Part shown: positions 2 through 34,266 of the stretch, one piece after another
Layout: each line of letters opens with the position of its first letter
Position numbering within the stretch: position 1 is the stretch's first letter
NCBI RefSeq assembly: GCF_022045235.1
Contig: NW_027266297.1
Location: forward strand, 14,632,001 to 14,696,000
Direction of reading: 5' to 3'
Source of the DNA: Haliotis cracherodii
Taxonomy: Eukaryota
Length of the DNA stretch: 64,000 nt
Program-made: the position numbers and the translations under genes
The notes under the pieces: generated by a model
What the model was told of the DNA's origin: nothing
The model's input: only the letters and a program-made list of their open reading frames with translations
Databases searched by the model: none

Positions 2-3000
2 AAGGATACAGTAGACATGATCCTTAAACAGAAAGTTCACTTCAACCTGTTCTACATGGGCATGGTGCAAAATGTGAACCTGACAAGCGCCAAGAAGCGG
101 GACACAGAAGCTCAGCTCATTGACCAGGTAGAGGAGGCTCAAGTAAGTGCAGAGGCTAGGATGCTCAGAGACATGGTAGTCAAGGGTAGACAGGCAGTAT
201 GGATACAATACCTGTTTCAAATAGTTCTTTCCTCTTCCTGATGTGTTCCAAATAATTTCAGGACAATGTTTTGAACATTTATTCAAATCAGATTTTTGTG
301 TTGCATTTTGTTTGTTTAAGGTAATTTGAGACATTATTTGTATGGTATTATTGAAAAAAAAGAGACCGCTCCAGTCAAGATAATCATTTTTTATAATGCA
401 CAGACTGCCACTGTGGTCTAGTGGATAGAGGGACGGCCCAAAGAGCGGAAGGTTCTTTGTTCAATCCCGAACGTCATACGAAAAGATGGTACTTGTTGTT
501 ACCCTGCCTGGTGCTTGGCATTAAGAGGATAAAACATAGACTGTAGGCTCGGAGTCAGTATACTGTGTCTGAGTGGGGTATCCATGTTAAACTGTGGCAT
601 GGTATCTCGGTTGGCTAGCATTATGAAACACTCATGCACACGCTCATTCCACAAGTGCATTGTGGGGCTGAGCTAAGAAATGTAAACAAAGACGGCCGAT
701 GTTTGGTGTTGCTGGTCATTGTGAGTTGAGGTGTTTTCTGTCGTACAAGTTATAACTTTGTTACCACCACTAATGTTAGAAAACTGCCTCAACTGCAAGC
801 CACGAAATAGTGTGCTTACCGAGTCAGTTGCGCTACATGATACTGTAACTGACTTGAATCGACGGCCTGGGGCATGATACTGCGTCACTGTGGGATGAAC
901 ATGGCGGAGGAAGAGCAATGTAGCGGCCGCTTTGTTTGACTACAGTAAATTGCTAAATGCCATACACTGAGCAACAGGTGTACATCTGGTTATGAAACTT
1001 TTCAACTATTATTCATTTCTTTGGAGTAGTCTGCAGTTGATCCATTCCTTTGTCCAGAGACACACCTAATTCAGAGGCACCAGAGCTCGCCTCAGACAAT
1101 TTTGTGACTGCTGTGGCACAAATGCAATGGTTGAATTATGTGTATGACCAATCTCATTAAAATCAGATCTTAGTTCTCGCTGCCGCTAAACAAAGATCTG
1201 AGGACATCCCATGACGGGTCATGTCAGACTGACCTTTCACAAACTCTGACCGACCAATGGAATTGCTGACAAGAAGTGGACATTAGCCAATCAGGAGACA
1301 GCTTTCTCGTGCTTTACGGCACTAATTTCAAATTGGCGACTACGCTTGGAAACATATTTTGACAAATTCTCGCTTAAAAATTTGAAACCTGAACAAAAGA
1401 ACATTTTCGAATGAAAAAGATGTTACCAAGGGTACGTTAGATCACAGGGGAGGAGAGTTGTTGACTTTGGTCCATTCTGACGTAACTCAAAAAGTGTACT
1501 TTATTGTGGGATAATGTAGTCGACACCTTTTGATCATTTAGCAAAGCATCCTAGAGTCTTAAACACAGCGTTAAAGACCCATTTCACCGAACCCAGATAA
1601 TGCACATTTTTCCTCTTTTAGATTGAAGGTAAGCTGCCCTTGTCTGTGACAGAGGAGGACAAAGTGGCGATTACCGTATCTCGACATGGAATCAAAGTGA
1701 TGGACACTTCCAGACAGGTGGGACACTGGCACATGAGTTTTGTTTGTTTGTTTGTTGTTTAACGCCAAACTCAGCAATATTCTAGCTACATGAAGGCGGT
1801 CTGTAAATAATTGAGTCTGGACCAGACAATCCAGTGATTGACATCATGAGCATCGATCCATGCAATTGGGATATGATGCATGCATCAAACAAGTCAGTGA
1901 GCCTGACCACCTGATCCTATTAGTCGCCTCTTACGACAAGCATAGTTGCCTTTTACGGCAAGCATGGGTTTCAGAAGACCTATTTTACCCCGGATCTTCA
2001 CTGGTGTCTACTACAGGCTTTAAGTGACAAGACAACTTAAAGCAAAAAGCAACAACAAACACACATTGAATGATCTGCCAACTTCAGAAATTTGAACACT
2101 GGATTCTTATTTTTTCAATAGAAAGATCCTGGGCTATTCGAAAGAGGCATAATTTTTTTGTCAATTTATGTTTTAGTGACCAGGTGTAACAGAGTATTAA
2201 TTGTCTATCATGATCTATCAGGATTCCCTTGCTACGTGTTCTTCTTATCAAAATGTGGAGCTGACAAATTAATTCTTAGTTTTCCTGGGTTATTCTTTTA
2301 ACTCAGGAAGTTTTCCAGCGCCATCCACTTCACACGATTGCACAACTGATTCACTACAACGATGGTTTCGGCAAACAGAATATCGCACTGAAGATCGGTC
2401 AAGTTGGGAAGATCATCAACCAGTGCTATCAGTGTTATATCTACCAATGTCATACAGAGGTAGGTCATCAACCAGTATTATATCTACCAATGTCATACAT
2501 AGGTAGGTCATCAACCAGTATTATATCTACCAATGTCACACAGAGGTAGGGCATCAACCAGTGTTGTATCTACCAATGTCACAAAGTGGTAGGTCATCAA
2601 CCAGTCTTGTATCTACCAATGTCACACAGAGGTAGGTCATCAACCAGTCTTGTATCGTCCAATGTCACACAGAGGTAGGTCATCAACCAGTCTTGTATCG
2701 TCCAATGCCATACAGAGGTAGGTCATCAACCAGTCTTGTATCTACCAATGTCACACAGAGGTAGGTCATCAACCAGTATTATATCTACCAATGTCAAATA
2801 GAGGTAGGTCATCAACCAGTCTTGTATCTACCAATGTCACACAGAGGTAGGTCATCAGCCAGTATTGTATCTACCAATGTCACACAGAGGTAGGTCATCA
2901 ACCAGTGTTGTATCTACCAATGTCACACAGAGGTAGGTCATCAACCAGTGTTGTATCTACCAATGTCACACAGAGGTAGGTCATCAACCAGTCTTGTATC

Positions 3001-3597
3001 GTCCAATGCCATACAGAGGTAGGTCATCAACCAGTCTTGTATCTACCAATGTCACACAGAGGTAGGTCATCAGCCAGTATTATATCTACCAATGTCAAAT
3101 AGAGGTAGGTCATCAACCAGTATTATATCTACCAATGTCACACAGAGGTAGGTCATCAACCAGTGTTGTATCTACCAATGTCAGACAGAGGTAGGTCATC
3201 AACCAGTATTATATCTACCAATGTCAGACAGAGGTAGGTCATCGGCCAGTATTATATCTACCAATGACAAATACGGGTAGGTCATCAACCAGTTTTTATC
3301 TTCAAATGTCACACACAGGTAGGTCATCAACCAGTGTTATATCTGAAGGAAACTGAGATAGAGTTGTCACAACCCCTGAATGCTTTTGTTCATAGGTTCA
3401 AGATTAAGGGTTCACCTGATGTGGCCTCCAATGGAGGGTTTGTCAGCTCTTAACAAACACAGGTATTGCATTGGAGTAAAGATTTGATTTTAAGGAGATT
3501 GATATATCTGGGCCCAATGTTCTAATTTCAGGAGGAGGCGAACGCTATTTGCCAGTGTGTGAGAAGGCTGTTTGATGCCATCACTGCAAAAGCATGA
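2..3597 (+). CDS. ITGB1BP1: Integrin beta-1-binding protein 1 (ICAP-1) orthologue, PTB domain; 5'-partial. Exons <2-142, 1622-1717, 2307-2459, 3532-3597
   Basis: GT-AG introns, all phase 0. Spliced product KDTVDMILKQKVHFNLFYMGMVQNVNLTSAKKRDTEAQLIDQVEEAQ|IEGKLPLSVTEEDKVAITVSRHGIKVMDTSRQ|EVFQRHPLHTIAQLIHYNDGFGKQNIALKIGQVGKIINQCYQCYIYQCHTE|EEANAICQCVRRLFDAITAKA* is colinear with the ICAP-1 PTB domain as I recall it (GKLP, VSKYGIKV, HRH.L..I, YDDG.G, YQC, AICK..FD). AATAAA at 4020-4025. Confidence 0.88.
409..632 (+). mobile_element. tRNA-derived SINE (Meta/RUDI-like core), degenerate; related inverted copy near 35365-35635
   Basis: A-box-like TGGTCTAGTGG, B-box-like GTTCAATCCC, core GGTACTTGTTGTTACCCTGCCTGGTGCTTGGCATTAAG; reverse-complement match near 35370-35460. 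Confidence 0.55.
1740..2005 (-). mobile_element. SINE-like family 1 (head GAAGATCCGGG..GGTCTTCAGCAACCCATGCTTGTCGTAAGAGGCGACTAA, (AAAC)n tail)
   Basis: Dispersed copies at about 7480-7670(-), 14262-14510(+), 17670-17810(-), 35083-35253(+), 35465-35550(-), 38998-39090(-), 43898-44110(+), 52385-52506(+), 57629-57750(+), 62552-62673(+). Confidence 0.8.
2412..3344 (+). repeat. 43-bp minisatellite (about 21 units) made of the end of ITGB1BP1 exon 2307-2459 plus its splice donor
   Basis: Unit GTAGGTCATCAACCAGTRTTRTATCTACCAATGTCACACAGAG; donor copies at 2460, 2503 ... 3319. Confidence 0.95.
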
Positions 3598-4192
3598 ACA
3601 TTTCTGGGACAGCTAGCCACAAAGGACTACATTGTGTATGGTAGAGTGAATTGTGAGGCTGTCACTGTTGTGACAGCTAGCCATTGAGGACTCCTTTGTG
3701 TGTGATGGGGTGAATTGTGAGGCTGTTTGATGCTGTCACTGCTAAAACATGAAGACTGCTGGGACAGCTACCTTTTATGGACTTCATTGTGAGGCTGTTA
3801 AACTGTATTTCATCAATGCATGTCAGCCTAAAGATGGAGGATACCATAAATTGATGCAGGTGCCGACAGAAACAACAGCAGCAGCAATTGGACTGATGAC
3901 CTGTGATATTGACATTGAGATACATTTCCTTGACGTCGTTAGGAGGATCACCTAACTATTTGCATAAAACATTGTTGAATTGTGCCTTGTTTATATGTGA
4001 ACTGAAGATATATTGTTATAATAAATAATGATTATGAACATATTTTTACATTTGAAATATCATAAAGTCATAGAAATGAATCAGACATATTTTGTCTACT
4101 TAGCTTTGGACAGGAAAAGGCAAAGGACCTTTCTTACCTATCATCATTGCTAATTTAACAAAACTTATAAAAACCCTAAAATATGTAGCAAG

Positions 4193-4936
4193 GTGTCCCC
4201 AGTGTCCTATGCTTGAAGTCAGAGCTGAGTACAGAGGACCCCAGTGTCCTATGCTTGAAGTAAGAGCTGAGTACAGAGGTCGCCGGTGTCCTATGCTTGA
4301 AGTAAGAGCTGAGTTCAGAGGTCCCCGGTGTCCTATGCTTGAAGTAAGAGCTGAGTTCAGAGGTCCCCGGTGTCCTATGCTAGAAGTAAGAGCTGAGTTC
4401 AGAGGTCCCTGGTGTCCTATGCTTGAAGTAAGAGCCGAGTACAGAGGTCGGTGGTGTCCTATGCTTGAAGTAAGAGCTGTGTTCAGAGGTCCCCGGTGTC
4501 CTATGCTTGAAGTAAGAGCCGAATACAGAGGTCCCCGGTGTCCTATGCTTGAAGTAAGAGCCGAGTACAGAGCTCCCCGGTGTCCTATGCTTGAAGTAAG
4601 AGCCGAGTACAGAGGTCCCCGGTGTCCTATGCTTGAAGTAAGAACCGAGTACAGAGGTCCCCGGTGTCCTATGCTTGAAGTAAGAGCTGAGTACAGAGGT
4701 CCCCGGTGGCCTATGCTTGAAGTAAGAGCCGAGTACAGAGGTCCCCGGTGTCCTAAGCTTGAAGTAAGAGCCGAGTACAGAGGTCCCCGGTGACCTATGC
4801 TTGAAGTAAGAGCCGAGTACAGAGGTCCCCAGTGACCTATGCTTGAAGTAAGAGCCGAGTACAGAGGTCCCCAGTGACCTGTGCTTGAAGTAAGAGCGGA
4901 GTACAGAGGTCCCCGGTGTCCTATGCTTGAAGTAAG
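4193..4936. repeat. 42-bp minisatellite, about 17.5 units
   Basis: Unit GTCCCCGGTGTCCTATGCTTGAAGTAAGAGCCGAGTACAGAG; accounts for the 14-aa periodic ORFs 4100-5017(-) and 4209-4793(+). Confidence 0.95.
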
Positions 4937-5432
4937 GGATGTGATGATCACAATGTCTGTAGACGTTGTCTCTGAAACTCTTTGATCAACAATTGCTTCA
5001 CCAAGAAACAAAATCATGTCAAGGACTAGGGTAAGATGGAATTGTTTTCCTTGAAATCAATGACGCCAAAATGAAAAAGATCAATTTATTTAGCATTTAT
5101 ATTGCTCGATACAGTTTATTGTTAGCAACATAATCACCATACCATATCTTATGCACATATTTACACAATACCATCACACTCCTCTCTCTAATTATGCACT
5201 GTTTGATGAACAATGAACACACAAAGCAAATCTCATACGTCTACCAGGTGCTTTTTCGAGCTTCCAATATTATGGTAGGCTCTCTTTCCATGTTTCTTGG
5301 ATTTTGTAATTGAGCACAGAGCGCAGCCACTGTGTCCATGCACACTGAAGCCTGTCACCTGGAGCCCTTGAGATGGAAACATCTCCAGTTCATGTTGTCT
5401 GAAAGATATTGCAGGGGCACTCTCACACAGCT

Positions 5433-5921
5433 CATATCTCCAGATAAGCTGCGTATCTCAGAAATGCAGAATTACGCTATAAAATAACATCCAAGTGTAT
5501 CAAATACGCAACTAACATTACAGATAAGCTACAAAAATAAAACTTGTGCGTATCATCAAAATATTGTGAAGTAACCCTGCATATTCGATTTGCAAATCAG
5601 CAACTTATTTTGAAATTATGAACGGGCATTCCGTCAACCTTGCCAAACTCCACGATGACAGTTACATCAGGATCATTTGCCATCACACTTTCTTGTGGAA
5701 GTATCGTGGTATTTTTTAGTCCTATAAAGCTCTCGAACCCACATGACACCAGTTTGCAGGGACTAGATGAAGTGTTTTTAAATATTTGACTTGAATACCC
5801 ACATGTGTAAATACTAGTCTGTAACAATAATATGAATACCCAGATAAAATTACTGATACCCAATGATTTTAAAATGCATGGGAAAAATACCCACAACACC
5901 AAAAGCTTATCTGGAGCTCTG
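5433..5921. mobile_element. MITE with TIR CAGAGCTCCAGATAAGC (degenerate left end); same family as 17118-17622, opposite orientation
   Basis: Whole interior is the reverse complement of 17118-17622; right end AGCTTATCTGGAGCTCTG. Confidence 0.8.
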
Positions 5922-8900
5922 CAGCCTCCCATGACACAGCAGCAATAGTAACATACAACATGTACACACATCAGGATTGCCCAAAACAATGGGATTTCTT
6001 TTCGAAATGAATGACCACATTTTCAATGATTTAGCATCCATATTGAAATAAAGCAAGCAGGTCAATAAAATTCACAACTGAAGTAGATGTCAAATCTAAG
6101 AATAGGTCTAGAATGAATAAGTAGCATCCAAAACTGACATAAAAAAACAACAACCTCAACCTACTTTTGATGACATGAATATCAACCAATTACTACACCT
6201 CTGCTTGTATGTCAACACCTTTGAGAGAATGTGAAAAGTCAACACCTTGTCAGTGTAAAAGGCATACTGTAAATCTTGAAATTAACATGAGCATGAATTA
6301 AATGCAAGTGGTCTTTTTTTCGCATGTAATGAAACGTAACATTTATATCTCCAAAATGAGTCTCAACAATAAGACTGCACTGGACACATTGGATAGCGGA
6401 AATACCAACTTGAATATAACCACAAACATGGTTTATTGAGCAGCAGTTGCCACAGTTATATAACCATGTCATTCCAAGAATAGGAATTACACACTAGGCA
6501 TCCGGTGAGTGATCACTGCTGGGGTCAAGAATTCTACCCACTTATGTCTAACTAGGTATCACTGACCACTCCAATCAGTGAGTTGTTGGTTCTATTATTT
6601 TATTGCCTTTGAACTTCCTTAACGCCAGTCAACAGAATAAACGTACAAACTGTAGGTTGTTTGGGCGAAAACACTGTTTATTGTTATTACAGAAGTGCTC
6701 TACTCAGCGCTAATAAGCAGTGTTATTTGCTGTCTGATGGGATCAAGGTAAGGTTGGATTAAGGTAAGGATATGTATCATTCCACTGGGGATGGGGTGGG
6801 GGAAGTCGCATTGATTTTGAGTCACATTTCTGGCTAGGGGACAGCGTTCGTATTAATTTGGAGACGCATTAATTTCAAGACTTAAGTATTCCTGGGACAT
6901 AAAAGACTAGTTACCAAATACTCATTGTCCATAATTCACAGCTTCTACATACATTACATGTTCCTCAATTAAGTGTGTATATAAAATTATATATATAAAC
7001 GTCAATGCAAGAAAATAACAGTCTTGATTATCTGCAGATTCCATTTGGCGTAAAGGGCAAAATAGCTATGAAAATTATACGGATGGAAAATGAATTATTA
7101 TTATACGAAATATAATCAATGCCTCTAAGTTCAAACTTTGACCAGGTTCTGTAACAATTCCCCTGAAGCTAGCTACTGAAGCTGGGAAATGGTCGAGGTT
7201 TTGGTGTCAATACCAGTAAATCTGACAAAGGTATTCAATCAAGCATTGCATATAGTGTCCCAATAGTGTTTTAAACTACTGCAACAGTTAAAAGCCCTAA
7301 AGGTCATCCCTAGCATCGATACAAAACAAAGCATACCGTGTATCGCGTATCATATCGGATATCATATTGACTTGCATATCTTGTATCATATCATGTATCA
7401 TATCACATGTGACACATCATGTATCTGATTGCATACCATATTGCATATCATATATCGTGTTTCATATCATTTTGGGTTTTTTTGGTTAATACCGCACTCA
7501 GCAATATTCCAGCTATATGGCAGCAGTCTGTATGTAAATAGTAGGCTCTGGACCAGACAATCCCGTGATTGACATCATGCGCTCAATCCATGCAATTGGG
7601 ATATGATGACATGCATTATAACCAAGTCAGCAAGCCTGACCACCTGATCCCGTTAGTCGCCTCATACGACAAGTGTATCATGTACCATATCACATATATC
7701 ACATATATAGCAAATGTTTTATCATGTATCATATCGAGTATCAGATTGTATATCACTCATATCAACATCCTGGTGAATCCTGGCATTTCACAGTGCCAAG
7801 ACACATGGCACACGGCTTATTATACTTTCGCATAAATACATTTATCATAACAGTATTGGACTAAAACAGTGAGACATTTCTTCCTTATTAGAGAAGATAA
7901 AGATACAAAACAGAAACTTATAAGCACATGTATACAAGTCAGTATCGTGTTGATAAAACTAAGTAGATTTAACAAATACAACATGCTTATATACAACAAT
8001 GGTTGATATCATGCATTGTGATTGATATCATGCATTAATGTGGTTGATATCATGCACTAATGTTTAAGATGAAAGCAGCATAAAAGAGAGTTCTTATACC
8101 AATGTAATCAAAATAATATGTATGGTATGTGTCTTGATCCGGAACTCCCACACCTAGACACTTGTGCACCTCCAACCTCCCCACCCCCAAAACCCGCCCT
8201 GACTTTGCCCAGTTACATTCAGATTAACCTTCGCTCCGATCCCACAACAATCTTTCCCTAAAGCTTGTAGGTCAACAAGCCCAAACTAATTTTGGTATCA
8301 ATTTCAGGGTTATTCTGTCTTGGCATATGGACAAATATAAACCAATCTGACAAGACCAGAATAAAGTGAACTAGACGCAGGCTTCGGACTAGTGGCTCAA
8401 GTCACAGACTGCTGCGCTGTTTATCAGCATGGGAAGGACTACAAAAATAGTCAATAGATCAAAGGCACACAATAAATATGTTATCACATCCCAATGTCCA
8501 CTTCTTACAGAGTAAATAAGAATGGTAAGTGTACATACATTGCATGTTATGTCTTAGATAAAATGTCAATGAATGTAATAATATGTACATTTAAACAACA
8601 ATAAGCAGGTATTAGCCATGTAATGTAATGCAATATTTGACATGATTCAAGGTGTTGATTGAGTTAATTATGTTTTAATAAACAGTAACATTGAGAATAT
8701 TTTTCAGATAAACTTTAAACTCTACAGATGAGACAAGCAGTCTTAAATTGTTTCACAAAATAAGTTATGCAGTAACAGTAGGTAACTTAGGTCATAATTC
8801 CAAATTGTTTGAAATTTAATTAGGACCAATCTATTAAATGTTTTTGCTGACACGTATACCCTAACAATTGCCAAAAAAACAATAAACATCATGAAAAATT

Positions 8901-9099
8901 CAAGGTATTTTGGAAACACCTGTTTCTTTTAAATAACTTTGCTTTCAAGCGATGTTTTGACAAGCAGAGACATCTCATGCTGGTAGATCCAAAACAGTTT
9001 CAGAAACTCTGCTAGACATTTTGGAACCAATTCTACAGGTACTGGTATCACTCTTCAACTGACTAGGAAGGCACAGGAACTTGCTTCCCTTATTAATCA

Positions 9100-9368
9100 G
9101 GGGCACGGGTGGCCCAGTTGTCTAAGGTGCCGCCATTCGCTGTGCAGAGTTTCGTCCCTATGATTGTGGGTTTGAATCCGGGTTCGCCCCGATTACGTTT
9201 CTAGGTTTGTCAGCACCATACCCTTGCTCGTGGGTTTCACCGAAGTGGTAAACATCTGAGACCTGCATCACTTCGGGCTTTCCTCCCACATTAAGCTGAC
9301 ACGCCGCGATATAACTGGAATACTGTTAAAAGCGGCGTTAAACCCAACTCACCCAACTCACTCACTCC
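9100..9368 (+). mobile_element. tRNA-derived SINE family 3 with (CACT)n tail and target-site duplication TCCCTTATTAATC
   Basis: A box GGTGGCCCAGTTG, B box GGTTTGAATCC, duplication on both flanks. Other copies about 9640-9903(+), 11838-12095(+), 35950-36195(-), 36330-36560(-), 38630-38840(-), 39850-39965(-). Confidence 0.85.
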
Positions 9369-10360
9369 CTTATTAATCGAGATGTTCAAGTATTATTCTT
9401 CCCTACCCTTAGCAGGTAAAAGAAATCATTCATTTTTTTTCAAATGCAATTCCACCAGTGTAGGACTTGGCTTATTAGCTTTAGGTGTGCATGGATGGGC
9501 AGGTGTCTCAGGCGCCACAATTTGCTTGCAGAATTACATCTCTTAGATGTGCCAGAAACTTAAGGGTTCGAATTCCAGTTCGCCCTGATCCAGTGTGTGG
9601 TGGTATTGTAAATCCTTCGCTCTACTAATTCAAGGTGTACGGGACACAGGTGGCTACAGTCTGTGGTGTAGAGTTGCGCCCCCTAGGCATGTCAGAAACG
9701 TATGATCGTTACAAATGCCAGACTCGCCATGATTTTGTTTCTACATTTGTCAGCACCATACCATTGCTCGGTGATTTCACCAAACTCGGAAACATCCAAG
9801 ATCTGCATCACTTCTGGCTTTCCTCCCGTATATGCTCACACGCCGTGGAACAACTTTAGTACTGTTCAAAGCAGCATTAAACCCAACTCACCCACACACT
9901 CATGAAATTGGGAAAATTGACCTCTCCCCTTGCCCAAATGGTCCCACCGTGTCCAAATGTCCTAGACAGCAATAACAGTAAGGGGTCCTAGAATGAGCTT
10001 CACAAATTGTACCCAAACTCAGATCATCAGTATGAATGACTGACACTTCCCCAGTACCCAATAGAACTGAAGGCCAAAAGTTATCTATATAAACATTGGG
10101 TCTAGGAAATATTCTGTCTATTTCACTGTTACACAATCACCAAAAGCATCTTCCAAAGATGCATTCAAATCATACTCGGTCAGCTTTGATCTCATATATG
10201 AATATACCAGAGCCAGTACCCATATGGTCCGAGATCCTATGCAGAGATGGTCCTGAAGCATTTTGTAGTCTTAGGTCCTATGTTTAAGGATCAGTCATAC
10301 CGGAATATTCTGGATTTCTCTACCAGTTTCAACCAGATCAAACATTAAATGAAAGACACA

Positions 10361-13300
10361 TCAATAATTATCGATTCCATGCATGAAGTTTTCGGGGTTT
10401 GTTTCCACATCCACGCTGGCATCAAGACGAGCGATGTGATCTGTGACCATGTTAAGAATCTGTTCTACGTCGTCGATGTTGCCGTTGCTGATAGTGCTCG
10501 CTGTTGACAACTCACTGACTGACCGTCTGCTGGAACAAACACATCAGGCTTGAAGTCAACTCGAAAAAATAAACACTTGAAATTCTTCCAAAATATTTCA
10601 GATGTTAGCATTCATTCATTTGGTCTGATATTAACATAACACTTAGCGGCTGGAGCCTTAACTAGCTTAGCCCTTAGAATCCTCTCCTATCTTAGCAAGG
10701 AACCTAATTTATTGCCTTTACTATCGGGGCCCCTTCAGCCGATAAGATAAATTTGTTGTTACTTTTATGATTAGGGTTCTCTGTAAAGTGCAATAGTCCT
10801 CCTCCCTTCTAATGTCTGATGTGCATGCTATATAGAAGCCAATAATTATTACGTGTACATTCTTGGGTTACTCCTGGAGCTGGAGAGTGTTCCATTCTCA
10901 GGGATGTTGATGCCATTCTTGCGGAGAAAGTCGACAAATTGACCATAGTCCGCAGAAGGGATGAAAGGACTCATTTCTAGAAAACCAATATTCGATGTTA
11001 TGACTACATTGATTCCAAATCCATTCAGTAATATCAAACAGAGAGCATGTGACAGTCACGGAATCAATGTTGAACAAATAAACAAGTTTTTCCTGACTTT
11101 GCTTTTATATTAAATGTATTTTCATCCTAACAAGCTCATCCTCAATCTTCATCTTAGCAATGTCAGTAGAACAGCATCATTAATTACAGATTATTAACAA
11201 GTTACAGGAGGATTAGTGAATGTTATTTTGTGCCACTGTCAGCAAATTGTCCAGGACCACGTTCCCCAAGTAGCACTCTGACAACAATGTTGAAGCTATG
11301 TTGGAGACCATACTGAAAATCAGATTCAAACTCATGAACAAATTGGGGTGCCATCTATGTTTGGGACAACATGTAAAATTTCTGCTTCATTGGTCCTGTG
11401 GTTTCTGAGAAGATGTTTACGACCGAATGCATGTTTTTCCAATGTGGATGCTGGCAGCCATGTTTCAGCTAAATCCATCACAGTTTGTGGATGAAGACAA
11501 TGATGATGGAAAGCTATGGATGACTTGCTAACAATATAAAATACCCACCTGCCAACAAATGTTTTCTATCTTGACCGTAAAGTTTTAGCACTTGTTCACA
11601 AAATTCTCCAATCGGTAGGTCATTATGCCAGTCCCGCAGAAGTTCAGCAAAGTGACGCAACTCATCCGGGTTCAGCTTTTGATGCAGCTGAAATATTTCA
11701 TGTGATGGTCAATAAACAGACAGATAAAAATACTAGCAGTCTCCTGAAACTGCTTTCTTATGATATGTTTTTGCGATGGTTTTTGTGTGATATTCTTCAT
11801 GTTCATGCACCCCAGGTAACCAGGGACCACTGCTATCAGGGGGCCCGGGTGGCCCAGTCGTCTAAGGTGCCGCCATTCACTGTGCAGGGTTGCATCCTTT
11901 GGGCACGCCAGAAACCTATGATTGTGGGTTCGAATCCCGGTTTGCCCCAATTATGTTTCTAGGTTTGTCAGCACCATACCCGTGCTTATGGATATCCCCA
12001 AAGTCCCAGTCCCCTATATCCCCACATTAAACTGATATTCCGCTATATAACTGGAATACTGTTAAAAGCGGCGTTCAACCCAACCCTCATTCACTTATTT
12101 CTATCATCAGATATTGTTAAATCATATGATTGGTTCATTTAGGCTCATTCCAATGTATTATCCAATAACAATACAGTGATGTTTTGTAATAGGTGGTAAG
12201 AAAAAGCTAGCCCAAGTAGTTTCCACGTAGTTTGAGCAGTATTTAAGTTTCCCCGTAGTTTGAGCAGTATTTAAGTTTCCCCGTAGTTTGAGCAGTATTT
12301 CAGTTTCCACGTAGTTTGAGCAGTATTTCAGTTTCCACGTAGTTTGAGCAGTATTTCAGTAATATCACACCTTAATGATATGAGAGGAAAGCCCCCAAAC
12401 TGCAATCATCAGATCTTAGATTTCAGATGTATCACAAAGTCCAAAGAAAAGCCCTCAGAAATGCAAGTCCTAGACTTTGGTGAGCATATGTTGAATTGAG
12501 AACCAGAGCTATATGGGAAAATATCAGTCATTCTCCAGAAGCAATATCAATATGTTAAAGGTAAGAAATTTGTTAGATTTTTTTGTGCAGTATGAAAAGA
12601 GACATTTATGAATATATACAAACAACATACTAACTTTAAACATGTAGTCTTTGACCAGGTCGGTGGGGATGCTGACATCACTCCCCCTCGTACTGTTCTC
12701 ACTCGGCACACGCTCTTGTCCGCGGGGCGATCGTCTCGGGATGGAATCTTGACGTGTTGGCAGATCTAGATTTGATGATGTCAAACTGAAAGAAAAATAC
12801 CACAATAATTCTAAAGGACAAGAAAAGGTAAGGTGGCATGTCTAATATTCAAACATATATAATACTCAAAGTCCTTGACCCACTAAGGAAATGTAAACAA
12901 AAACAGTGCAAACTTGGTAAACAAAATCATCATAGGCCACACACTTACCGTATTCGACGTAATAAGCGCCCAGGGCACTCTCAAAATTAAAAATAGGGGG
13001 CTCTTATTAGAATATTATTTTGGTGAAAAAGAGTTGAAAGATCAATTTCGTTGTTTATGCTGACCATCCTGACAGCCTGAAATGTTCATATACGACAGAT
13101 ATATTTTTCCAGAATTTAATTGCCCATAATAAAGGGTGCATATAACACACAAGTGTGTATTATACGCGAATAAATAAGTCTTGTGTACATTGATCAATCG
13201 GGAGGGGTGCTAATTGGGATTGTTAACTAGCCAATATATTAGCAAATATTGACGTGGGCGCTTTATGAGAGCAGGGTGCTTATTACGTCGAATACGGTAA

Positions 13301-16300
13301 TTATAATTGGCTTATCTCATGATGCTAGATGTTTATGTGCACTTGATCATGTCATATTTACAGTCCTGAACCCACAAGTATAAGAATGAACACCATTTGA
13401 ACATGCATGATTATTTTTATGCAATTATTTTAGAGTTTTCCTATATTTTACCATTTTACAATTACATTTTCAGTGAACCAAATCACCCCTCTGTTATAAA
13501 AAGAAGGGAGAACCAGTTCTAAAGATGCCAAAGACAACCAGTTCCAAAGATGCCAAAGACAACACAAAAGCATGCATAATCAACACTCAACAAGTAACTT
13601 ACAATGAAGGACGTCCACCATGTCCGAAGGGAAACACCGTTGTCGACTCTGAAATTGTTTCTATGAGATAAAAACTATTATCAATAACTGTACTTTAATT
13701 AATACAAGCAATACAGAATGATATTAAAAAAGAGTGATCAAGTTCAGAGGGCGAGGTCACTTTGAGCTATCAGATGGGAGTGAGTGACTCTGGTTTAATA
13801 ACAGTATTTCGTTTATACCACTCTATATTAGTTTAATCACTTTAATGAGATGAGAGCCCAATGTTACCATGGCTACCCAAATTGTAAACTGTAGGTCATA
13901 GACACTTTTAACTCTTTGACCTTTGACCACTAAGTCACCTCTACCGCCAATGGAATTAGAGTGAGTGATACATCTACGCCATTTTTAGCCATATTCCAGC
14001 CACATTCCAGCCATATTTTAGAAATATCATAGCAAGGAGACGGGGGCCCACTTGCACAAAGCTATCTTAGCGCTAAGACTATCGTAAGCCTTGTTAAAGC
14101 ATGGGTGTTACGATCATCTTAGCGCTAAGATCACTTTGTGCAAGTGGGACCAGGAGCAGGCTTCATACATTGTGCCCATATGAGGAATTGAACCAAGGTC
14201 TTCAGTGTAAAGAGAAAATGATTTAACCACTGGGCTACGCCATTTTCCTAATGCAATAAAAACCCTGTTGGGATTCTGGGTCCGAATAAGTCCCAGCAAC
14301 CTATGCTGGCCGTAAGAGGTGATCAAATCAATCAGGTGGTCAGTGACATGACTTGGTTGACTGCCTGTCATCAAACCCAAACAGCGTAAATCATTGCTCA
14401 TAATATCAACTCCTGGTTTATTTGGTCCAGACATGATTATTACAAGCCACTAGCATTTATATGTAGCTGGAATATTGCTGAGTGTGGCGTTAAACAACAG
14501 ACAAGCAAACCAATGCAATAAGACAATAAACTTTGTCATAGTACACATGGTAAGAGAGCACTACAAAATATAACCCATAATTTTAGTATGAAAAATATTA
14601 AAAAATCAGAGTGGCAGGTTATTGAGTATTTGAAGCCTGGGAATCCCAACCATACAAACGAACTCAAATTTGAAAATATGTAATGTTCATCAATGCTGTA
14701 AATACAAATAATCATGTTTCAGTGTTCACATTTCATAAATAAAACACTGTATGACTTTGGTCAAATGTGTCCTATCATTACACAAGAATACTGATGAAAA
14801 GTGAAAAGTGTCATCAACTTGCACGTACCCCCAGTTGATCCACTGTGAGAGACGCTGGTCGTGGTTCCGGGGATGCGAGAATCCAACAGCTGCATGGTGG
14901 CCTCAGTATACACCAGCTGGAAACACTGGCCAATCAGAGCACACAGTTCCTCTGCTGCTTGCTGATGGCAACCAATCAGAAGACAGTATTTGAGTAGGAT
15001 ACTTTGCTATCATATGTATCAGTTAGGGGCACTTAACATAAAACATGCCACATGAAGGCAAGCAACTCAAGCACAATTGGTGTTTGGTAGTCATGTTATT
15101 GTTTTGTTGAGATATATCATCAAATGATTAGGCAGATGTGGTCACCCAGCAGTGAATGGGTACCCAGTAGGAGGAGATGGTAATGTGACTGTTACCCTTC
15201 TCACACCTTGGGTTGTATACTCACCAGGGCATTGAGAATGAAAACTTGAGTGCACACTGACCAAGGTACCGTATTCGACGAAATAAGCGCCCGGGGCGCT
15301 CTCAAAATTAGAAATAGGGGGCTCTCATTAGAATATTATTTTGGTGAAAAAACAGAGTTGAAAGATAAATTTCATGGTTTATGCTGACAGCCTGAAATGT
15401 TTATATACAACAAATATCTGTTTCCAGAATTTAATTGCCCATAATTAAGGGTGCATATAACAAAGAGTGTGTATTATATTCGTATTATGTATTATGAGTT
15501 GAAAGATCAATTTCGTGGTTTATGCTGACAGCCTGAAATGTTTATGTACAACAGATATGTTTCTGGAATTTAATTGCCCATAGTTAAATGTGCATATAAC
15601 ACACTAGTGCGTATTGTACAAGTCTTGTGAACATTGTTCAATCGGAAGGGGTGCTAACTGGGATTGTTCACTAGCCAACATATTAGCAAATACCGCCGTG
15701 GGCGCTTATTAGAGCGGGGCACTTATTACGTCGAATACGGTCATTATAATGCAACCCTTCAAGCACACACACGTATGGAGTTATGCACTTTACAGTGAGT
15801 TGAGTTTTACCCCACCTTTAACAATATTCCAGCAATATCAAGGCTGGGAACACCAGAAATAGGCTTCAGAAATTGTACCCATGTGGTGAATCAAACCCGG
15901 GGCTTCGGCGTGAAGAGCAAACGCTATGACCACAAGGCTACCCCCCCCACCCCTTATGCACTTTACAAGCAGATCATTATTGCCAGATGAATCAAAACAA
16001 CTTGTGAAACAACTTATGTTTGATAGTGATGTTAATTGTTGGAAAACATATCATCAAATGATTTAGGTATATCCAATACAATTACATTTTTAAAAGTGTG
16101 GGTGGTTCGGGGCGGTGTGGGGTGGTGTGGGGTGGGGCGGTGTGGGGTGGGTGGTGTTACACACCTGTACCTTCCCTTCTGGATATGTGTATCTATATTA
16201 TTTTTTATTATACAACCTGAATGACATGTCTGACAACCCCAATTTCACACATTTCTTAAATTAATATTTTTAGAGCAGTCGCTTTTATAGTTTCAAAGAG

Positions 16301-25607: not shown

Positions 25608-28600
25608 ATGTCTTAGTAGATCTGATATCTACCCCCGCCTTTATAGACCTCTTTAAAGTGGAACAAGTCAACTTGTCTCTTTTGGGGGGTAAAGGCAATG
25701 TCCTCCGCCAGACATATCAGGCAGCGTTCGTGCCTGTCTTAGAACAACCCGTACACAGTTTGAAGGTCTTTGTAAACAAGACCGTAATTTCTGAGGTGGG
25801 CGGGAAGGGTATTAACGTGTATCAGTGCGATATAAAGATCGGAAAAATACGTGCATAAATTGTGAAACTAGAAGCAAAGGCGTAATGTAGAATGCGATTT
25901 GTAACGCGATACTAATAGCCAATGTCGTAGTTTAACTATAACACCAAAGGGGCGTGTTACGCGCTAAGATGAAAAAACCCGTAAAAAAGGTAAGTGTAGT
26001 TTATAAATTAACACACCACCTTGGGTTTTGTAAAGGAAAAAATTGTAGTCCAATGCTGTATGATATAACAAAACCCCAAGCCGTTTCTTAATGGCCTTGG
26101 TGTTACATGTATCAGCCCGTGGGACTACAATATGGACGCCATTACGGCCATTTGAATTCAAAGGTGCCGTGCACGTGGCGTCAATTACAACTCTATAACT
26201 TCACAATGCGAGGTATTACGCCTTTGCAATGAAAGAAATGTACCATACATACAGTTTGGTCAGCCATGGTTCTTGTCGAACGATAGATTTCTCTTATTTT
26301 GTCTTGTGTGAAAAATCAACACGTCTGTCTCTTACAGATGACATAAGGAAAGTGATTTGGGTGAGAGTTGCTCCCCCTGGCGTGAGGCGCCGTTGGTGGT
26401 GAGGCCCCGTAAGGGTGGTCGTATATCATACAAAAACGAAGTTTTTTGTGTGGTAACATTTTTTATTAAGGAAAATGGTTACAACTATGTCATGTAGATT
26501 TTCTTGAGCAAGGAAAATGCAATAAGTGCCCCAAGGAGGATTTAATCAGAAAGAGAATTTTCCTTGTTGTCATCTGGACACACAGGAAAGTAGTGAGGTG
26601 ATTCCGCAGTGGCGTCTCTGGCAGGGATAGGGTTTCCCTCACAACTAATAGATATGTTGGCAGTGAAGAGGACGTCTGTTGAAAATCTATTAAAATATTT
26701 GTAGTGTGGTTCTCAGCATAAACAGGAATTTATGACAATGATGTAATAGAGGTAGGGTATTCACAAGAATTAAAGAAATTTGCTATGTCAGTCTGCGTCA
26801 AATTCATTTCAGTCTACTAGCCTGGACCTGTACCTTGAAATCATTTTCATGTCTATGGAGGTCCATACTCCAATGAACTCACTTAAAGCAAAAGTCAACT
26901 CTTTTAAATTTTTGTATCACTATTTTATACGTCTAAGTATCTACATGATCTATATCTATACACAATTCTATTAAGTATGCGTGACTTCTTGTTTACACCA
27001 ACAGCCATACAACAACCACCTTCATCGCGGAATGGAACAGCTCCTCAAAAGGAGAGGTGACATGAGCTTACGTATGCTCCAGTGACATCATTTGTAGTTT
27101 GTTTACAACAATTATATTCAAATAATATCATTATGAGCTGAGAAGGGTCTGTTAAGAGCTACCTCAGTTAATCATTCAGGGTGACTGCGAAGCGTAATAA
27201 ATTTGGAATGGCCGACGGATACATGGCGGGAGATCACTGTCCGGTAATTGAACGGTGATTGTAAAGATGCGTTAAATAGATACTAAGGTAAATTTATAGA
27301 TTGCTGTAGACTGTCACTGTGAGTCTAGGCATGGATTGAGTCGATACTACTAGTTTGGATGTGCATTTCTTTGTTTTGTTCACTAGGAGTGGTCGTAACA
27401 AGGATGTCCTTCAACGAACATGCAATCAAACTCTCTGACCCAATGTGTGCTAAAACACTAAGTTCAAGATTAAAGGGTCTAAATGATCAGAAACAACACT
27501 TCGGTGCTAATTTGTGTTTGGGAATTCCCAGGGGTTTCTCCAGGGATGTGGACATAGCCTGTCAGTGTTTACGTCATTTCAAGAATTTACGTCATTTCAA
27601 GAATATAGTCTCTTGAAAAACGTATGAATGTCAAAATGTGTCATTCATGCACTATTGATCTTCAGTTTCGCAGTCATGTGACCAACCTCTTGTCAAATGG
27701 AAAAGCTGTAAATCATGTAACCTTTATATTGAAAAATTATACAAACATGATCATGTATGCACGAGACACTGCATTCTTACCAAAGAGACTTGACAAAAGT
27801 ACCAGCATCTCTACGAAATGTACCATTCAAAGAATAAAGAAGGTGCATTACATAAGTCAGCTCATCATTAGTTACTGAAATACCAGTTACACATACATAG
27901 ATTCTACACAGGGTTTCAACTGACCTTGACAACCTTCTCTACGTTCTCCTCAATGAGGTACTGAGGTTTCACGTAGTAGTCAGGGGGTTTGAGATCGTAA
28001 CTGTTGAGCACCCGTCGGCTGTACATGCCCATCTCTTCACGGGGGCCCCGACCGCGATTCAGTTGGTTGCTGAAGAAGCCCTGGAAGTGGAAGAACAACA
28101 ATGAGTGAGTTGAGGTTCACGATGCTTTCAACAGAATTTGAGTGATATGATGGTTTGACGGATGCTGTTCACATCAGGTTGTAAGCATAGTGAGTTTTTC
28201 ATCTCCATGTTCAGCATCAGATAGCTGGTAGTTTAAGGAATTAAAAAATAAAAAATACTATGTTTACTTGAGAAAACAACTGGTGAGTTATCTGTTTAAC
28301 ACATATATATCATAGTGACAACATAAATGTAAGCAAACACATTGATGAATGCGGAAGTGGTCATGTTACTGTTTTTCTGTTTTATAGATTGTTTAATAAT
28401 GACAAACATTTACGATTGGAAAAAGAACAGATGTTCATTAGGCTTTTGAAATCTAAACTTAATTTAGAAGCATAATTTTCAAAACTTCCCCATGCAGCTC
28501 AATGTGTATTTGTGCACTCACGCCATAATGTATTCATACCTGCCACTATTATCACTAGCTATGACGTCATATGCTTTATGACGTCAAAAGCATAACGATG

Positions 28601-32000: not shown

Positions 32001-34266
32001 ATCAAATACATGTACAAAATTTAAACAAATTTATCATTTTTCGATTTACATACGAGATGTGTAGTTTGTGATTTTACTTTGGCCTCGTTTCGCTGACTGC
32101 ATTCTTGAAACGGCATCGTTCAGATCCGCCAAACTGTCAAAAACTGTTTGTTTTACAGACAAGATTACATGTACAGGTAAGATTAACACAATGCAAATTT
32201 AACAAGGTTGATCCGTCACCACTGATTGTATTGATTCGCCGCCATTGTTTTGATTCGCCGCGGATTGCGTACAGCCAATTGTCAGTGACACTTGACACTG
32301 AGTGAGATTTCTCAGTTCGCTATACACGTCGCTAATAAGTGATAAATGGGCTTGTCGGTTATCAGATATCAGTTCGCTGTATCCGTTAGTTCGCTATAGA
32401 GAGTTCGTTATATACGTAAATTTTATATGATATTATAAATCAGGGATTTTTGAACAGTTTCTTGTATCCGTTTGTTCGCTATATCCGTGTTCGTTACATC
32501 CGTGTTCTACTGTACTTGAATCATGTTTACCAACTCTCAATACATATTTACAGAAATTTGTGGGAAATCTATCTGAAAATATTCTTTCTTGAAAGCCCCA
32601 TAATTCATCCCCATATTATAACACTGGCTTTATCTTGCTATCAAATATTTTAAGTAGTACATTGTCAGGCAAATTTGGAAATTTACTGTATAACTTTTTA
32701 ATAACAAGAAGCGCCGTACTAGCTTTGTTAACAAGAGTAACAGTACACTTTGCCCAAGATAATCAAGTGGAACATAACACCCCTAGGTAATTATAATATG
32801 TAGACGTCTTTAACGGTTTACTGTCAATGACCCACTTTTCATATGATCGGATAATACCACCATTCATGAAAAACTGAACCCTCCATATGATTCCATAATA
32901 ACTTCTAAACCCTAAGATATACAAAACTTATGGAGGATGTCAATCTTTCTTTGTAGACCAATAACACTGTCATCAAATATATAAATATACTCAGTGAAAA
33001 GTAACAATAACTGTTCATGAAAGTCAGAGCCAACAAATATACCTCTGAGTTGTGCATTTTGTAATATAGTGTGAAATTCCGTAATGAATAGCAAAGAGAA
33101 GTGACTTAACATGCTCAAGACACAACCCTGTCTTACATTGCTAAATGATTCAAAACATTTCTACTGCTGCTATAATCTTTAAATACACAGTCATTAATAT
33201 TATGAATGATTTACCATGAATACCATTTCGATATGAGTGAATGCCAAAGTAAAATTTCTATTTATAGAATTGAAAGCTTTTTCCAAATCCACAAATCACC
33301 ATGATCACCAACAAGACATCCCACCACTTGTAGAAAGATATTGCTGCACCAGACATAAGTCTGTAAGGTCCTTCCTGTAGTTATTAAAACATTGCATCTT
33401 GTATTTCGACAAGTAGATCTAGTATATGTATCATCATCACAGTTCTAAACTTGGATTAAATCTATTGTCATCATTCAAAATATAATCATATAAATTGCCA
33501 TTTGGTTATTCATATGATATCCAGGAATAGTCTCATTGTTTTCTTTCGAACAGTTGCTCTAGAATTCAAGAGCTCCAAAAATGTCAAAACCAGAGCAAAA
33601 ACTTATAAATCCATTATCAGACAGATCGTTTGTTTCTGAGACAAAAAAATATATCCCAAAACAAGGAAGTGAAATTCCATATTTTGGTGTTGTACGTGTT
33701 ATTGTTAATCTTAAAATACTTATGTCGTCGGCTTATCGACTAATACAGTGCAGAGATTTTGATAGAGACCAAAGGCACTGGGATATCATTATGATTTTGT
33801 TAACAGTTAAAGATAAGATACTCGGTAGAAGTCTAGCCTAATATACAAAGGACGTATTGGATGACAAGTCTGTCAGTTTGTCAGAAATTGAATCGATCTG
33901 AAACCTTGATAGTTTCATTATAAATGTAACTCACGCTGAAATAACTTATCAATTGATACAGGCCTACGAAAGTTATAGATCTATTTTTTTTTAAAAACAA
34001 TCATTGTTAACTTTTTTTTTACGAAATTACAGCAAGCGGTCTTCAATCATTCTTCCATCATGTCCAATTAATTTGATGGTTTAATTCATTGTTTGAGATC
34101 TTGAGAGCATTGCCTTGATCTAATAATCATCAGTATTTTCTATAATGTTCCCTTAATGTATATTTACAACTGATCAAAACGAGAACAGCTGATTTATTTC
34201 CAGTTTCTAGACATTTGGATCACAAGTTATATTTACCTTTTTTCTTGTCCGTGGGTCGTCTTCCAT
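10361..34266 (-). CDS. CCM2: Cerebral cavernous malformations 2 protein (malcavernin), 421 aa. Exons 34266-34237, 28080-27925, 20069-19986, 19550-19452, 19131-19044, 17081-17035, 14961-14829, 13648-13603, 12785-12635, 11687-11549, 10976-10853, 10529-10361
   Basis: All introns GT-AG with compatible phases, 1266 nt in total. N-term MEDDPRTRKK; PTB domain (VEKVVKYAG..NRTDVLRVIDKGK..EHEAIFSLS..LLRIPMHEIAAVCYIKDD..AAEELCALIGQCFQLVYTE); harmonin-homology domain (DYMFKLHQKLNPDELRHFAELL..EFCEQVLKLYGQDRKHLL..PFIP). Colinear with vertebrate CCM2 as I recall it. Confidence 0.93.
12217..12360. repeat. 28-bp tandem repeat, about 5 units
   Basis: GTAGTTTGAGCAGTATTTMAGTTTCCMC repeated. Confidence 0.9.
12948..13297. 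mobile_element. Tc1/mariner-type MITE
   Basis: TIR CCGTATTCGACGTAATAAGC / GCTTATTACGTCGAATACGG, flanked by TA on both sides. Confidence 0.85.
14044..14151. mobile_element. Small palindromic MITE (about 108 bp) nested in a minus-strand family-2 SINE
   Basis: GGCCCACTTGCACAAAGCTATCTTAGCGCTAAGA ... TCTTAGCGCTAAGATCACTTTGTGCAAGTGGGACC. Confidence 0.7.
15269..15740. mobile_element. Second copy of the Tc1/mariner-type MITE, with an internal duplication of about 130 bp
   Basis: Same TIRs and interior as 12948-13297; GAGTTGAAAGAT..GTGCATATAACA block present twice. Confidence 0.85.
17118..17622. mobile_element. 505-bp MITE, TIR CAGAGCTCCAGATARGCT, 6-bp target-site duplication CAATGC
   Basis: CAATGC at 17112-17117 and 17623-17628; second copy at 5433-5921. 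Confidence 0.85.
18466..19011. mobile_element. MITE with imperfect TIRs of about 80 bp (..AGGCAAGGGAGTTAACTGA..)
   Basis: The two ends are reverse complements; an internally deleted hairpin version lies at 44110-44200. Confidence 0.7.
19158..19320 (-). mobile_element. tRNA-derived SINE family 2 (about 160 bp, (CACT)n tail)
   Basis: Matches 44767-44929(+); other copies about 15795-15953(-), 29696-29845(+), 41735-41890(+), 48998-49150(-), 54247-54399(-), 59487-59639(-). Confidence 0.85.
20466..20559. other. DIRS internal complementary region (circle-junction template)
   Basis: First half is the reverse complement of 20193-20246, second half of 26519-26561; joined at TGT-AAAA-TTCTC. Confidence 0.9.
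21100..22100 (-). pseudogene. DIRS tyrosine recombinase, frameshifted with an in-frame stop
   Basis: Fragments GLAASTVRGYSTAIAAF, HPLVQRFLAG..PWDLSIIL..VVVTSGRRVGDI, SKQSISRWI..LKAH*VRAVAAS split across ORFs 21211-22063. Confidence 0.85.
22200..23830 (-). pseudogene. DIRS pol: RT, RNase H and adenine-methyltransferase-like domain, frameshifted
   Basis: GFYSTCFLV, WLTSIDL, AYLHIPIHP, VFTKLM, PYLDDWLL, TEASLSGWGG, HINVLELRAV, DLFASVMN..WAFPP in several frames. Confidence 0.88.
24730..25285. repeat. Three tandem GC-rich units of about 183-189 bp in the DIRS gag region
   Basis: CCACTAGTGRAAGCCTCGGCCTCGGAAGAGGCGTCTGGCTCCGCTAGGGAAA at about 24762, 24950 and 25133. Confidence 0.9.
28727..28764 (+). 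ncRNA. Minimal hammerhead-ribozyme-like motif (Penelope-type), probably inactive (G12>A)
   Basis: ACAC-CTGAAGA-GCCGT(TGA)ACGGC-AAAA-GATC-TT-GTGT: stem I, core, stem II and palindromic helix-III remnant. Confidence 0.5.
28961..29027. repeat. (TA)n microsatellite
   Basis: About 33 perfect AT units. Confidence 0.97.
31200..34150 (-). mobile_element. Highly degraded non-LTR retrotransposon (LINE) in CCM2 intron 1; boundaries approximate
   Basis: Minus-strand RT remnants FVDLEKAFN (about 33270-33295), NVRQGCVLS (about 33113-33140), FDD..GLQRKIDILHKFC (about 32920-32980). Confidence 0.6.
31789..32512. mobile_element. Tc1/mariner (pogo-like) non-autonomous element nested in the LINE
   Basis: TA|CAGTAGAACACGGATATAACGAAC ... 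GTTCGTTACATCCGTGTTCTACTG|TA with subterminal GTTCGYTATA repeats. Confidence 0.85.

What the first reader, a model, noticed from the sequence alone, without database searches (positions are those of the whole stretch)
2..34266. ICAP-1 and CCM2, two KRIT1-binding PTB proteins, are adjacent tail-to-tail and share three intron positions
Seen: I find no gene between the two stop codons (3597 and 10361). Three phase-0 introns fall at equivalent PTB positions: EEAQ|IEGKLP vs DKGK|KQGFIP; DTSRQ|EVFQRHP vs YNQSE|DLLLRIP (enclosed exons 96 vs 99 nt); YQCHTE|EEANAIC vs LYCDTK|QAAEELC. Established: both proteins bind KRIT1/CCM1 NPxY/F motifs, and the human genes are on different chromosomes (2 and 7). Inference: the pair may be the retained product of an ancient local duplication that gave rise to the two PTB subunits of the CCM complex, or a co-regulated micro-synteny block.
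Basis: partly seen in the sequence, partly recalled or inferred. Interest (0 to 1): 0.7.

Follow-up and report, generated by a model that had tools for sequence, protein, structure and literature searches.

The report
Ancient ICAP-1/CCM2 sister-gene pair
Two genes whose human versions bind the same scaffold in a brain blood-vessel disease pathway (ICAP-1 and CCM2) are each other's closest relatives among the proteins tested and sit tail-to-tail both in this abalone and in two annelid-like genome fragments, likely as a leftover of the duplication that created them.

Summary
Both genes are intact, spliced as read, tail-to-tail, with no gene found between them; the three phase-0 introns align exactly. 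The intron argument is weak: GULP, Numb, ANKS1, Mint and a fifth PTB gene of the same genome carry phase-0 introns at or near all three sites, and CCM2 shares a fourth with them that ICAP-1 lacks. The conclusion survives on better evidence. (1) ICAP-1 and CCM2 are sister PTB families: reciprocal best profile hits, structure Z 19.4 versus at most 15.9 for other PTBs, tree support 100/99. (2) The arrangement is not abalone-specific: both of the two metagenome contigs long enough to test (annelid-like) carry CCM2 tail-to-tail with ICAP-1, and one also shares the upstream TFIIS gene. Linkage therefore dates at least to the mollusc-annelid ancestor. Both families occur in sponges, so the duplication is older still; continuity back to it is inferred, not shown. 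The genes lie on different scaffolds in four heterobranch snails and on different chromosomes in humans, so any constraint is loose. Co-regulation was not tested. I found neither the linkage nor the sisterhood in the papers searched.

The parts
1..142 (+). ICAP-1 (ITGB1BP1) coding exon 2 (begins 38 bases before the window; coding exon 1 lies about 250-320 bases before it); ends at shared intron site I
1622..1717 (+). ICAP-1 exon, 96 nt, phase 0/0, between sites I and II
2307..2459 (+). ICAP-1 exon, 153 nt, phase 0/0, between sites II and III
   Evidence: PF10480 E 5.9e-5; joint 2459-3532 in 4 of 4 runs
2430..3344 (+). 43-bp tandem array (21 copies) made of the exon end plus its splice donor
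   Evidence: 21 GGTAGG donor-like copies; only the first is seen spliced
3532..3597 (+). ICAP-1 last coding exon with stop
3598..4024 (+). ICAP-1 3' UTR, AATAAA at 4020
   Evidence: spliced contig ends at 4024 in X1 and 4010 in X5; hexamer
4195..4936 (.). 42-bp tandem array (17.7 copies) filling most of the gap between the two 3' ends
5085..10360 (-). likely CCM2 3' UTR (about 5.2 kb); minus-strand AATAAA at 5085 and 5115
   Evidence: tiling contigs of RNA-guess runs, strand not shown; hexamers
10361..10529 (-). CCM2 last coding exon (alternative acceptor at 10526)
10853..10976 (-). CCM2 exon 11, harmonin-homology domain second half (alternative donor at 10859)
11549..11687 (-). CCM2 exon 10, harmonin-homology domain
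   Evidence: PF16545 E 4.6e-11
12635..12785 (-). CCM2 exon 9
13603..13660 (-). CCM2 exon 8
14829..14961 (-). CCM2 exon 7, PTB C-terminal helix, starts at shared site III
17035..17081 (-). CCM2 exon 6 (47 nt, phase 1/0)
19044..19131 (-). CCM2 exon 5 (88 nt), starts at shared site II
19452..19550 (-). CCM2 exon 4, 99 nt, phase 0/0, between sites I and II
19986..20069 (-). CCM2 exon 3 (84 nt); starts at an intron shared with GULP, Numb, ANKS1 and Shc but not ICAP-1
27925..28080 (-). CCM2 exon 2
34237..34266 (-). CCM2 exon 1 (30 nt, ATG)

Best explanation
ICAP-1 and CCM2 are sister PTB-domain genes that sit tail-to-tail in abalone and in two annelid-like contigs, most likely because they arose by a local duplication of one ancestral PTB adaptor before sponges and bilaterians split and have stayed neighbours under only weak constraint. 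Shown: both genes intact and spliced; sister relationship among the PTB families tested; same order and orientation in a mollusc and two annelid-like loci, with TFIIS head-to-head with ICAP-1 in abalone and in L052; both families present in sponges. Inferred: that adjacency is continuous since the duplication; that one copy stayed a bare PTB (ICAP-1) while the other carries the harmonin-homology tail (CCM2), the two dividing KRIT1's NPxY/F motifs (motif 1 versus 2/3, established in vertebrates); that retention owes to slow rearrangement helped by tight packing (3' ends about 1 kb apart, a divergent TFIIS neighbour on the other side). The shared introns are an inheritance from the wider Dab-like PTB family, not a mark of this duplication.
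For: Sisterhood: ICAP-1 profile (60 seqs) ranks CCM2 first after ICAP1 in the PDB, 57.4 bits vs GULP 43.1; CCM2 profile (28 seqs) ranks ICAP1 first, 42.5 vs GULP 18.1; 5 of 5 CCM2 proteins scanned score higher on PF10480 than on PF00640; the predicted abalone ICAP-1 model matches CCM2 at Z 19.4, rmsd 1.7, 126 aligned, tied with ICAP1 (19.4-20.3), next EPS8 15.9 and Dab 14.8; trees separate ICAP-1 + CCM2 + unicellular relatives from 10 and from 7 other abalone PTBs at 100/99 and 99/99; AU tests reject CCM2+GULP (p 3e-7) and CCM2+ANKS1 (p 1.7e-4). Linkage: of 16 metagenome loci, 2 reach more than 2.5 kb past the ICAP-1 stop and both carry CCM2 on the opposite strand, stops about 3.5 kb (L052) and 0.9 kb (L053) apart; their ICAP-1 groups with Capitella at 98/92. 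L052 also has the 69-nt TFIIS first exon in the abalone position and orientation (score 67, next best 25 of 36,114 windows). Age: ICAP-1 in four named sponges and ICAP-1-like proteins in two named choanoflagellates; CCM2 with its tail in Amphimedon.
Against: No deuterostome, cnidarian or sponge locus could be examined, so there is a gap between the duplication (before the sponge split) and the oldest shown linkage (mollusc-annelid ancestor). L052 and L053 come from one unnamed assembly and may not be independent lineages. In 4 of the 10 assemblies (Aplysia, Physella, Lymnaea, Bulinus) the listed proteins lie on scaffolds of different length, though a second, linked CCM2 copy could have been missed, since Haliotis and Bradybaena have two. 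Human CCM2 maps to 7p15-p13 (PMC7729028, passage) and ITGB1BP1 to chromosome 2 (recalled). The tree outgroup is from one species, partly incomplete, lacks Dab, tensin and EPS8, and has only 138 columns. No conserved non-coding match was found between abalone and annelid-like gaps.
Confidence: 0.65

Rival explanations
1. The pair is a tandem-duplication relic actively held together by shared regulation, for example to balance the two KRIT1 partners (ICAP-1 draws KRIT1 to the nucleus, CCM2 to the cytoplasm) or through interlocked 3' ends.
For: Three-gene order kept between mollusc and annelid-like L052; 3' ends close in abalone and hexamers 134 bp apart in L053; opposing localisation roles in vertebrates (PMC7729028, passages); both bind KRI-1 in C. 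elegans (PMC6470173, passages).
Against: Different scaffolds in 4 heterobranchs; unlinked in human; the second Haliotis CCM2 persists with no ICAP-1 in 110 kb; KRIT1 and PDCD10 candidates are on other contigs; no conserved non-coding sequence.
Confidence: 0.2
2. The two sister genes were dispersed early and became neighbours secondarily in the spiralian stem by ordinary shuffling; the linkage is old but has nothing to do with the duplication.
For: Adjacency is shown only in molluscs and annelid-like loci; the duplication is much older.
Against: A chance meeting of exactly the two sister paralogues is unlikely (my rough estimate, a few in 1000 even on one linkage group); not computed from data.
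Confidence: 0.12
3. Abalone-specific chance neighbourhood or assembly artefact, with the PTB likeness only generic.
For: The introns are generic to PTB genes.
Against: Same arrangement in L052 and L053; sisterhood by profile, structure and tree; same contig in two other Haliotis assemblies.
Confidence: 0.02

Closest known systems
Vertebrate and nematode CCM complex (KRIT1/KRI-1 with ICAP1 on NPxY motif 1, CCM2 on motifs 2/3)
   Same: Same proteins and domains: PTB-only ICAP-1, PTB + harmonin-homology CCM2; a KRIT1 candidate with two NPxF motifs (NPVF, NPLF) in one open frame is in this genome.
   Different: Human genes are unlinked; human CCM2 has one 184-nt exon (PMC6825194, table passage) where abalone has 99 + 88 nt, so it lacks site II. 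Binding in abalone was not tested.
Ancient metazoan microsyntenic gene pairs and retained tandem paralogue pairs (Irimia et al. 2012 and similar surveys; recalled, not read)
   Same: Neighbouring genes with order and orientation kept across phyla.
   Different: Here the neighbours are deeply diverged sister paralogues (18% identity in the structural alignment) that bind one scaffold; this pair was not found in the supplements of six genome/synteny papers searched.
Dab-like PTB family (Uhlik et al. 2005 classification; recalled, seen only as a reference-list entry)
   Same: Fold and the common set of phase-0 introns.
   Different: ICAP-1 and CCM2 form their own well-separated subfamily that reaches choanoflagellates.

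Membership tests
ICAP-1 / ITGB1BP1 | Short protein with a Ser-rich N-terminus and a single ICAP-1-type PTB domain | tested here: met
   P0001 187 aa, PF10480 85.2 bits, cut-off 25; best PDB hit ICAP1
ICAP-1 / ITGB1BP1 | Binds beta1-integrin tail and KRIT1 NPxY motif 1 | not tested
   Established in vertebrates (PMC7729028, passages); no binding test or complex prediction run
CCM2 / malcavernin | N-terminal PTB plus C-terminal harmonin-homology domain | tested here: met
   PF16545 78.3 bits and PTB hit 58-187 in P0061; profile's best PDB hits are malcavernin
CCM2 / malcavernin | Binds KRIT1 NPxF 2/3 and MEKK3 | not tested
   Only the presence of a KRIT1 candidate with NPxF motifs was seen
Sister paralogues (ICAP-1 + CCM2 clade) | Each is the other's closest PTB family | tested here: met
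   outgroup limited to one species in the trees
Sister paralogues (ICAP-1 + CCM2 clade) | Intron positions exclusive to the pair | tested here: not met
   Site II identical in GULP, Numb, ANKS1, Mint and the C15 PTB gene; site III identical in ANKS1 and two residues off in GULP, Numb, ARH, Mint; site I within 1-5 columns in five others
Ancient microsyntenic block | Adjacency kept across phyla | tested here: met
   Abalone plus annelid-like L052 and L053; TFIIS shared with L052
Ancient microsyntenic block | Adjacency in deuterostomes or non-bilaterians | tested here: inconclusive
   No usable locus or gene table found
Co-regulated block | Co-expression or shared cis-elements | not testable with these tools
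   Only contigs of RNA-guess runs available; no conserved non-coding match

The most novel reading that the evidence does not exclude
The two PTB arms of the CCM complex were born as a tandem pair before animals diversified, and the TFIIS-ICAP-1-CCM2 block has been held together since then in slow-evolving lineages by shared regulation that balances the two KRIT1 partners; choanoflagellates keep a living proxy of the undivided ancestor.
Probability: 0.2. Interest if true: 0.75.

Novelty: new member of a known kind. Interest (0 to 1): 0.52.

Why it matters
It gives a concrete origin for a disease-relevant signalling complex: KRIT1's two PTB partners, usually treated as unrelated binders, are one subfamily split by duplication, and a genomic trace of that event appears to survive in spiralians. 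It makes testable how motif preference (NPxY1 versus NPxF2/3) and the integrin versus MEKK3 outputs diverged, using sponge and choanoflagellate proteins, and it adds a three-gene marker block for synteny studies.

Tried and rejected
Introns as diagnostic evidence: rejected after rebuilding other PTB genes of the genome. Of 13 other PTB loci looked at, 5 have phase-0 introns at or near all three sites (GULP, Numb, ANKS1, Mint; the C15 gene with site III seen as a donor only), 2 are intronless, and 6 differ or were only partly recovered. No Dab locus was found; tensin was not fetched. One L052 exon was mis-picked and corrected. Dating the duplication against the choanoflagellate split: neither order rejected (p-AU 0.19 and 0.24). 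RefSeq accession distance as a proxy for adjacency (154 in Lineus, about 830 in Gigantopelta, about 1850 in Pomacea): could not be calibrated, not used. The other 14 metagenome loci end within 2.4 kb of the last ICAP-1 exon found or are transcript-like, so they are uninformative. Scans of prokaryote genome contigs and viral contigs found no relative. A weak ICAP-1 Pfam hit on C3 is not a PTB exon on inspection. No sequencing run was on record as RNA. A promoter-like YY1/ETS motif pair near the TFIIS start is not seen in L052, so a bidirectional promoter is unsupported. Earlier scan findings: 5 look-ups, nothing relevant. Literature: 9 full-text searches gave no paper on the linkage or sisterhood. 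Supplement searches of PMC8809688, PMC10719294, PMC10946136, PMC13121700, PMC10232365, PMC9977687 and PMC7385117 gave no hit; one file each in four of them was not searched. The CCM2-PTB and ICAP1-KRIT1 structure papers (PMC4317034, PMC3684052) are not held and may already remark on the structural likeness.

Full report
1. The observation. The window is C34:14,632,001-14,696,000 of a 1.18-Gb genome. Its CCM2 exons translate exactly to proteins named Haliotis cracherodii CCM2. ICAP-1 runs on the plus strand from just before the window to a stop at 3597 and equals P0001, 187 aa, with GT-AG at all four junctions. CCM2 runs on the minus strand in 12 coding exons from 34266 to 10361. The three introns quoted are phase 0, enclose 96 and 99 nt and occupy identical columns in a 71-sequence alignment. 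Eight ATG ORFs of 60 aa or more lie between the stops; none has a credible family match. Contigs from runs guessed to be RNA splice 2459 to 3532 in 4 of 4 runs and end near an AATAAA at 4020; others tile from the CCM2 last exon down to about 5100, near minus-strand hexamers at 5085 and 5115. So the 6.8 kb between stops is likely mostly CCM2 3' UTR and the true gap about 1 kb, most of it a 42-bp array. Contigs show no strand, so this is inferred.

2. The introns are not diagnostic. I pulled the other PTB loci found by Pfam searches of the genome and rebuilt their exons. GULP, Numb, ANKS1 and Mint were named by best PDB hits; the names ARH, CAPON, Shc, JIP, FE65, RABGAP1-like and FAM43-like are from my recall of motifs. 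Site II is in the identical column in GULP, Numb, ANKS1, Mint and an unnamed PTB gene on C15. Site III is identical in ANKS1 and two residues later in GULP, Numb, ARH and Mint. Site I is within 1-5 columns in GULP, ANKS1, Numb, ARH and C15, in a loop that aligns poorly. GULP's enclosed exon is 99 nt, as in CCM2. A fourth phase-0 intron just before the first-strand glycine motif is shared by CCM2, GULP, Numb, ANKS1, C15 and Shc but is absent from ICAP-1 in abalone, L052 and L053. Of 13 other loci, 5 carry all three sites at or near position, 2 are intronless and 6 differ or were incompletely recovered. Human CCM2 has a single 184-nt exon here (PMC6825194, table passage), so it lacks site II.

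3. ICAP-1 and CCM2 are sisters among the families tested. An ICAP-1 profile ranks CCM2 first among non-ICAP PDB sequences (57.4 bits vs GULP 43.1; the same order with a narrower profile). A CCM2 profile ranks ICAP1 first among non-CCM2 sequences (42.5 vs 18.1). The two profiles align over 143 columns at probability 99.5 (no control family run). All 5 CCM2 proteins scanned score higher on the ICAP-1 Pfam model than on the general PID model. A confident model of abalone ICAP-1 (mean pLDDT 87.8) matches CCM2 at Z 19.4, rmsd 1.7, tied with ICAP1 itself and 3.5 above the next PTB. Trees of 71 and 28 rows separate ICAP-1, CCM2 and unicellular relatives from other abalone PTBs at 100/99 and 99/99, and AU tests reject CCM2 with GULP or with ANKS1. 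Limits: 138 columns, a one-species outgroup without Dab, tensin or EPS8; 42 ICAP-like and 16 CCM2 database rows were hand-picked from the larger sets, plus P0219 and the two metagenome ICAP-1s. ICAP-1 occurs in Ephydatia, Sycon, Oscarella and Vazella, ICAP-1-like proteins in the choanoflagellates Diaphanoeca and Hartaetosiga, and CCM2 with its harmonin-homology domain in Amphimedon. The duplication therefore predates the sponge-bilaterian split; whether it predates choanoflagellates is unresolved (p-AU 0.19 and 0.24).

4. The linkage is not abalone-specific. A metagenome scan with an ICAP-1 alignment gave 16 loci. Two extend more than 2.5 kb beyond the ICAP-1 stop, and both carry CCM2 exons on the opposite strand, tail-to-tail: L052 (PTB to last exon, stops about 3.5 kb apart) and L053 (C-terminal exons, about 0.9 kb apart). 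Their ICAP-1 proteins are 66% identical to each other and group with Capitella at 98/92; the two loci differ in GC (0.38 and 0.46) but come from one unnamed assembly. Upstream of abalone ICAP-1, head-to-head, lies a TFIIS (TCEA) gene. L052 has the same 69-nt first exon in the same place and orientation (score 67 against 25 for the next of 36,114 windows; the only two PDB hits are TFIIS, both weak); L053 shows none in its 3 kb of upstream sequence. The heterobranch result is soft, because a second CCM2 copy could be the linked one. Haliotis has a second CCM2 on C56 with the same PTB introns and no ICAP-1 within the 110 kb examined. KRIT1 and PDCD10 candidates lie on other contigs, so this is not a cluster of the whole complex.

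5. How it most likely works. One ancestral NPxY-binding PTB adaptor duplicated locally. One copy stayed PTB-only, the other carries the harmonin-homology tail; in vertebrates they bind KRIT1 motif 1 and motifs 2/3 and pull it to nucleus or cytoplasm (PMC7729028 and PMC13013565, passages), and both bind KRI-1 in C. elegans (PMC6470173, passages). The pair stayed adjacent into the mollusc-annelid ancestor and in some descendants, and came apart in others. I favour weak constraint (0.65) over active co-regulation (0.2) because of the apparent losses, the free-standing second CCM2 and the lack of conserved non-coding sequence, and over secondary joining (0.12) because a chance meeting of two sister paralogues is unlikely. 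From recall and untested: human ITGB1BP1 (2p25, beside ASAP2), TCEA3 (1p36, beside ASAP3), TCEA1/2 (8q, 20q) and CCM2L (20q11) lie in regions usually assigned to one vertebrate paralogon, which would fit an older shared linkage group; a paper search for this found nothing useful.

6. Novelty. The genes and their complex are well known. I found no statement of the linkage or of the sister relationship in 9 full-text searches and 7 supplement searches; the two key structure papers were not available and may note the structural likeness. Papers seen: passages of PMC6470173, PMC13013565, PMC6825194 and PMC7729028; supplement searches only for the seven genome papers; search listings for the rest. 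It is a new example of a known kind, an ancient microsyntenic paralogue pair, of moderate interest (0.52).

Noticed in passing
L001 5912 to L002 about 3750, minus strand (about 4.1-16.2 kb before window base 1): Complete TFIIS/TCEA gene head-to-head with ICAP-1; its first exon is also upstream of ICAP-1 in annelid-like L052 (1392-1324, minus).
   Followed up: yes
window 2430-3344: 43-bp array of 21 copies built from the end of an ICAP-1 exon plus its splice donor; use of a later donor would shift the frame for most copies, and only the first is seen spliced in 4 runs of contigs.
   Followed up: partly
window 2307-2459: Haliotis ICAP-1 has a 3-residue insertion before the last strand, present in all three cluster members and absent from the 11 other proteins aligned.
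   Followed up: partly
G000 C56:53,686,358-53,709,710 (L026-L028): Second CCM2 paralogue (73% identical) with the same PTB introns, seen in four Haliotis species; an inverted extra copy of its 99-nt exon sits at C56:53,690,638.
   Followed up: partly
window about 21,000-25,900: GC-rich element in CCM2 intron 2 with broken reading frames that look like a DIRS-type retrotransposon (label from recalled motifs; 4 frames gave no Pfam hit).
   Followed up: partly
window 41087-37482, minus: BTB-BACK-Kelch gene upstream of CCM2 on the same strand.
   Followed up: no
window about 47,300-63,500: Tandem segmental repeat, unit about 5 kb, at least three copies, 98-99% identical; repeated short frames have no convincing Pfam match.
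   Followed up: no
protein P0219: Unnamed 308-aa protein with an MIT domain fused to an ICAP-1-type PTB; falls next to CCM2 in the tree at 97/83 on a long branch.
   Followed up: partly
L052 about 6,620-6,680: A short duplicate of the start of the ICAP-1 96-nt-type exon lies in frame just upstream of the real acceptor.
   Followed up: no
G000 C10:2,835,337-2,835,700 (L038/L039): KRIT1 candidate with two NPxF motifs (NPVF, NPLF) in one open frame; a third motif was not located.
   Followed up: partly
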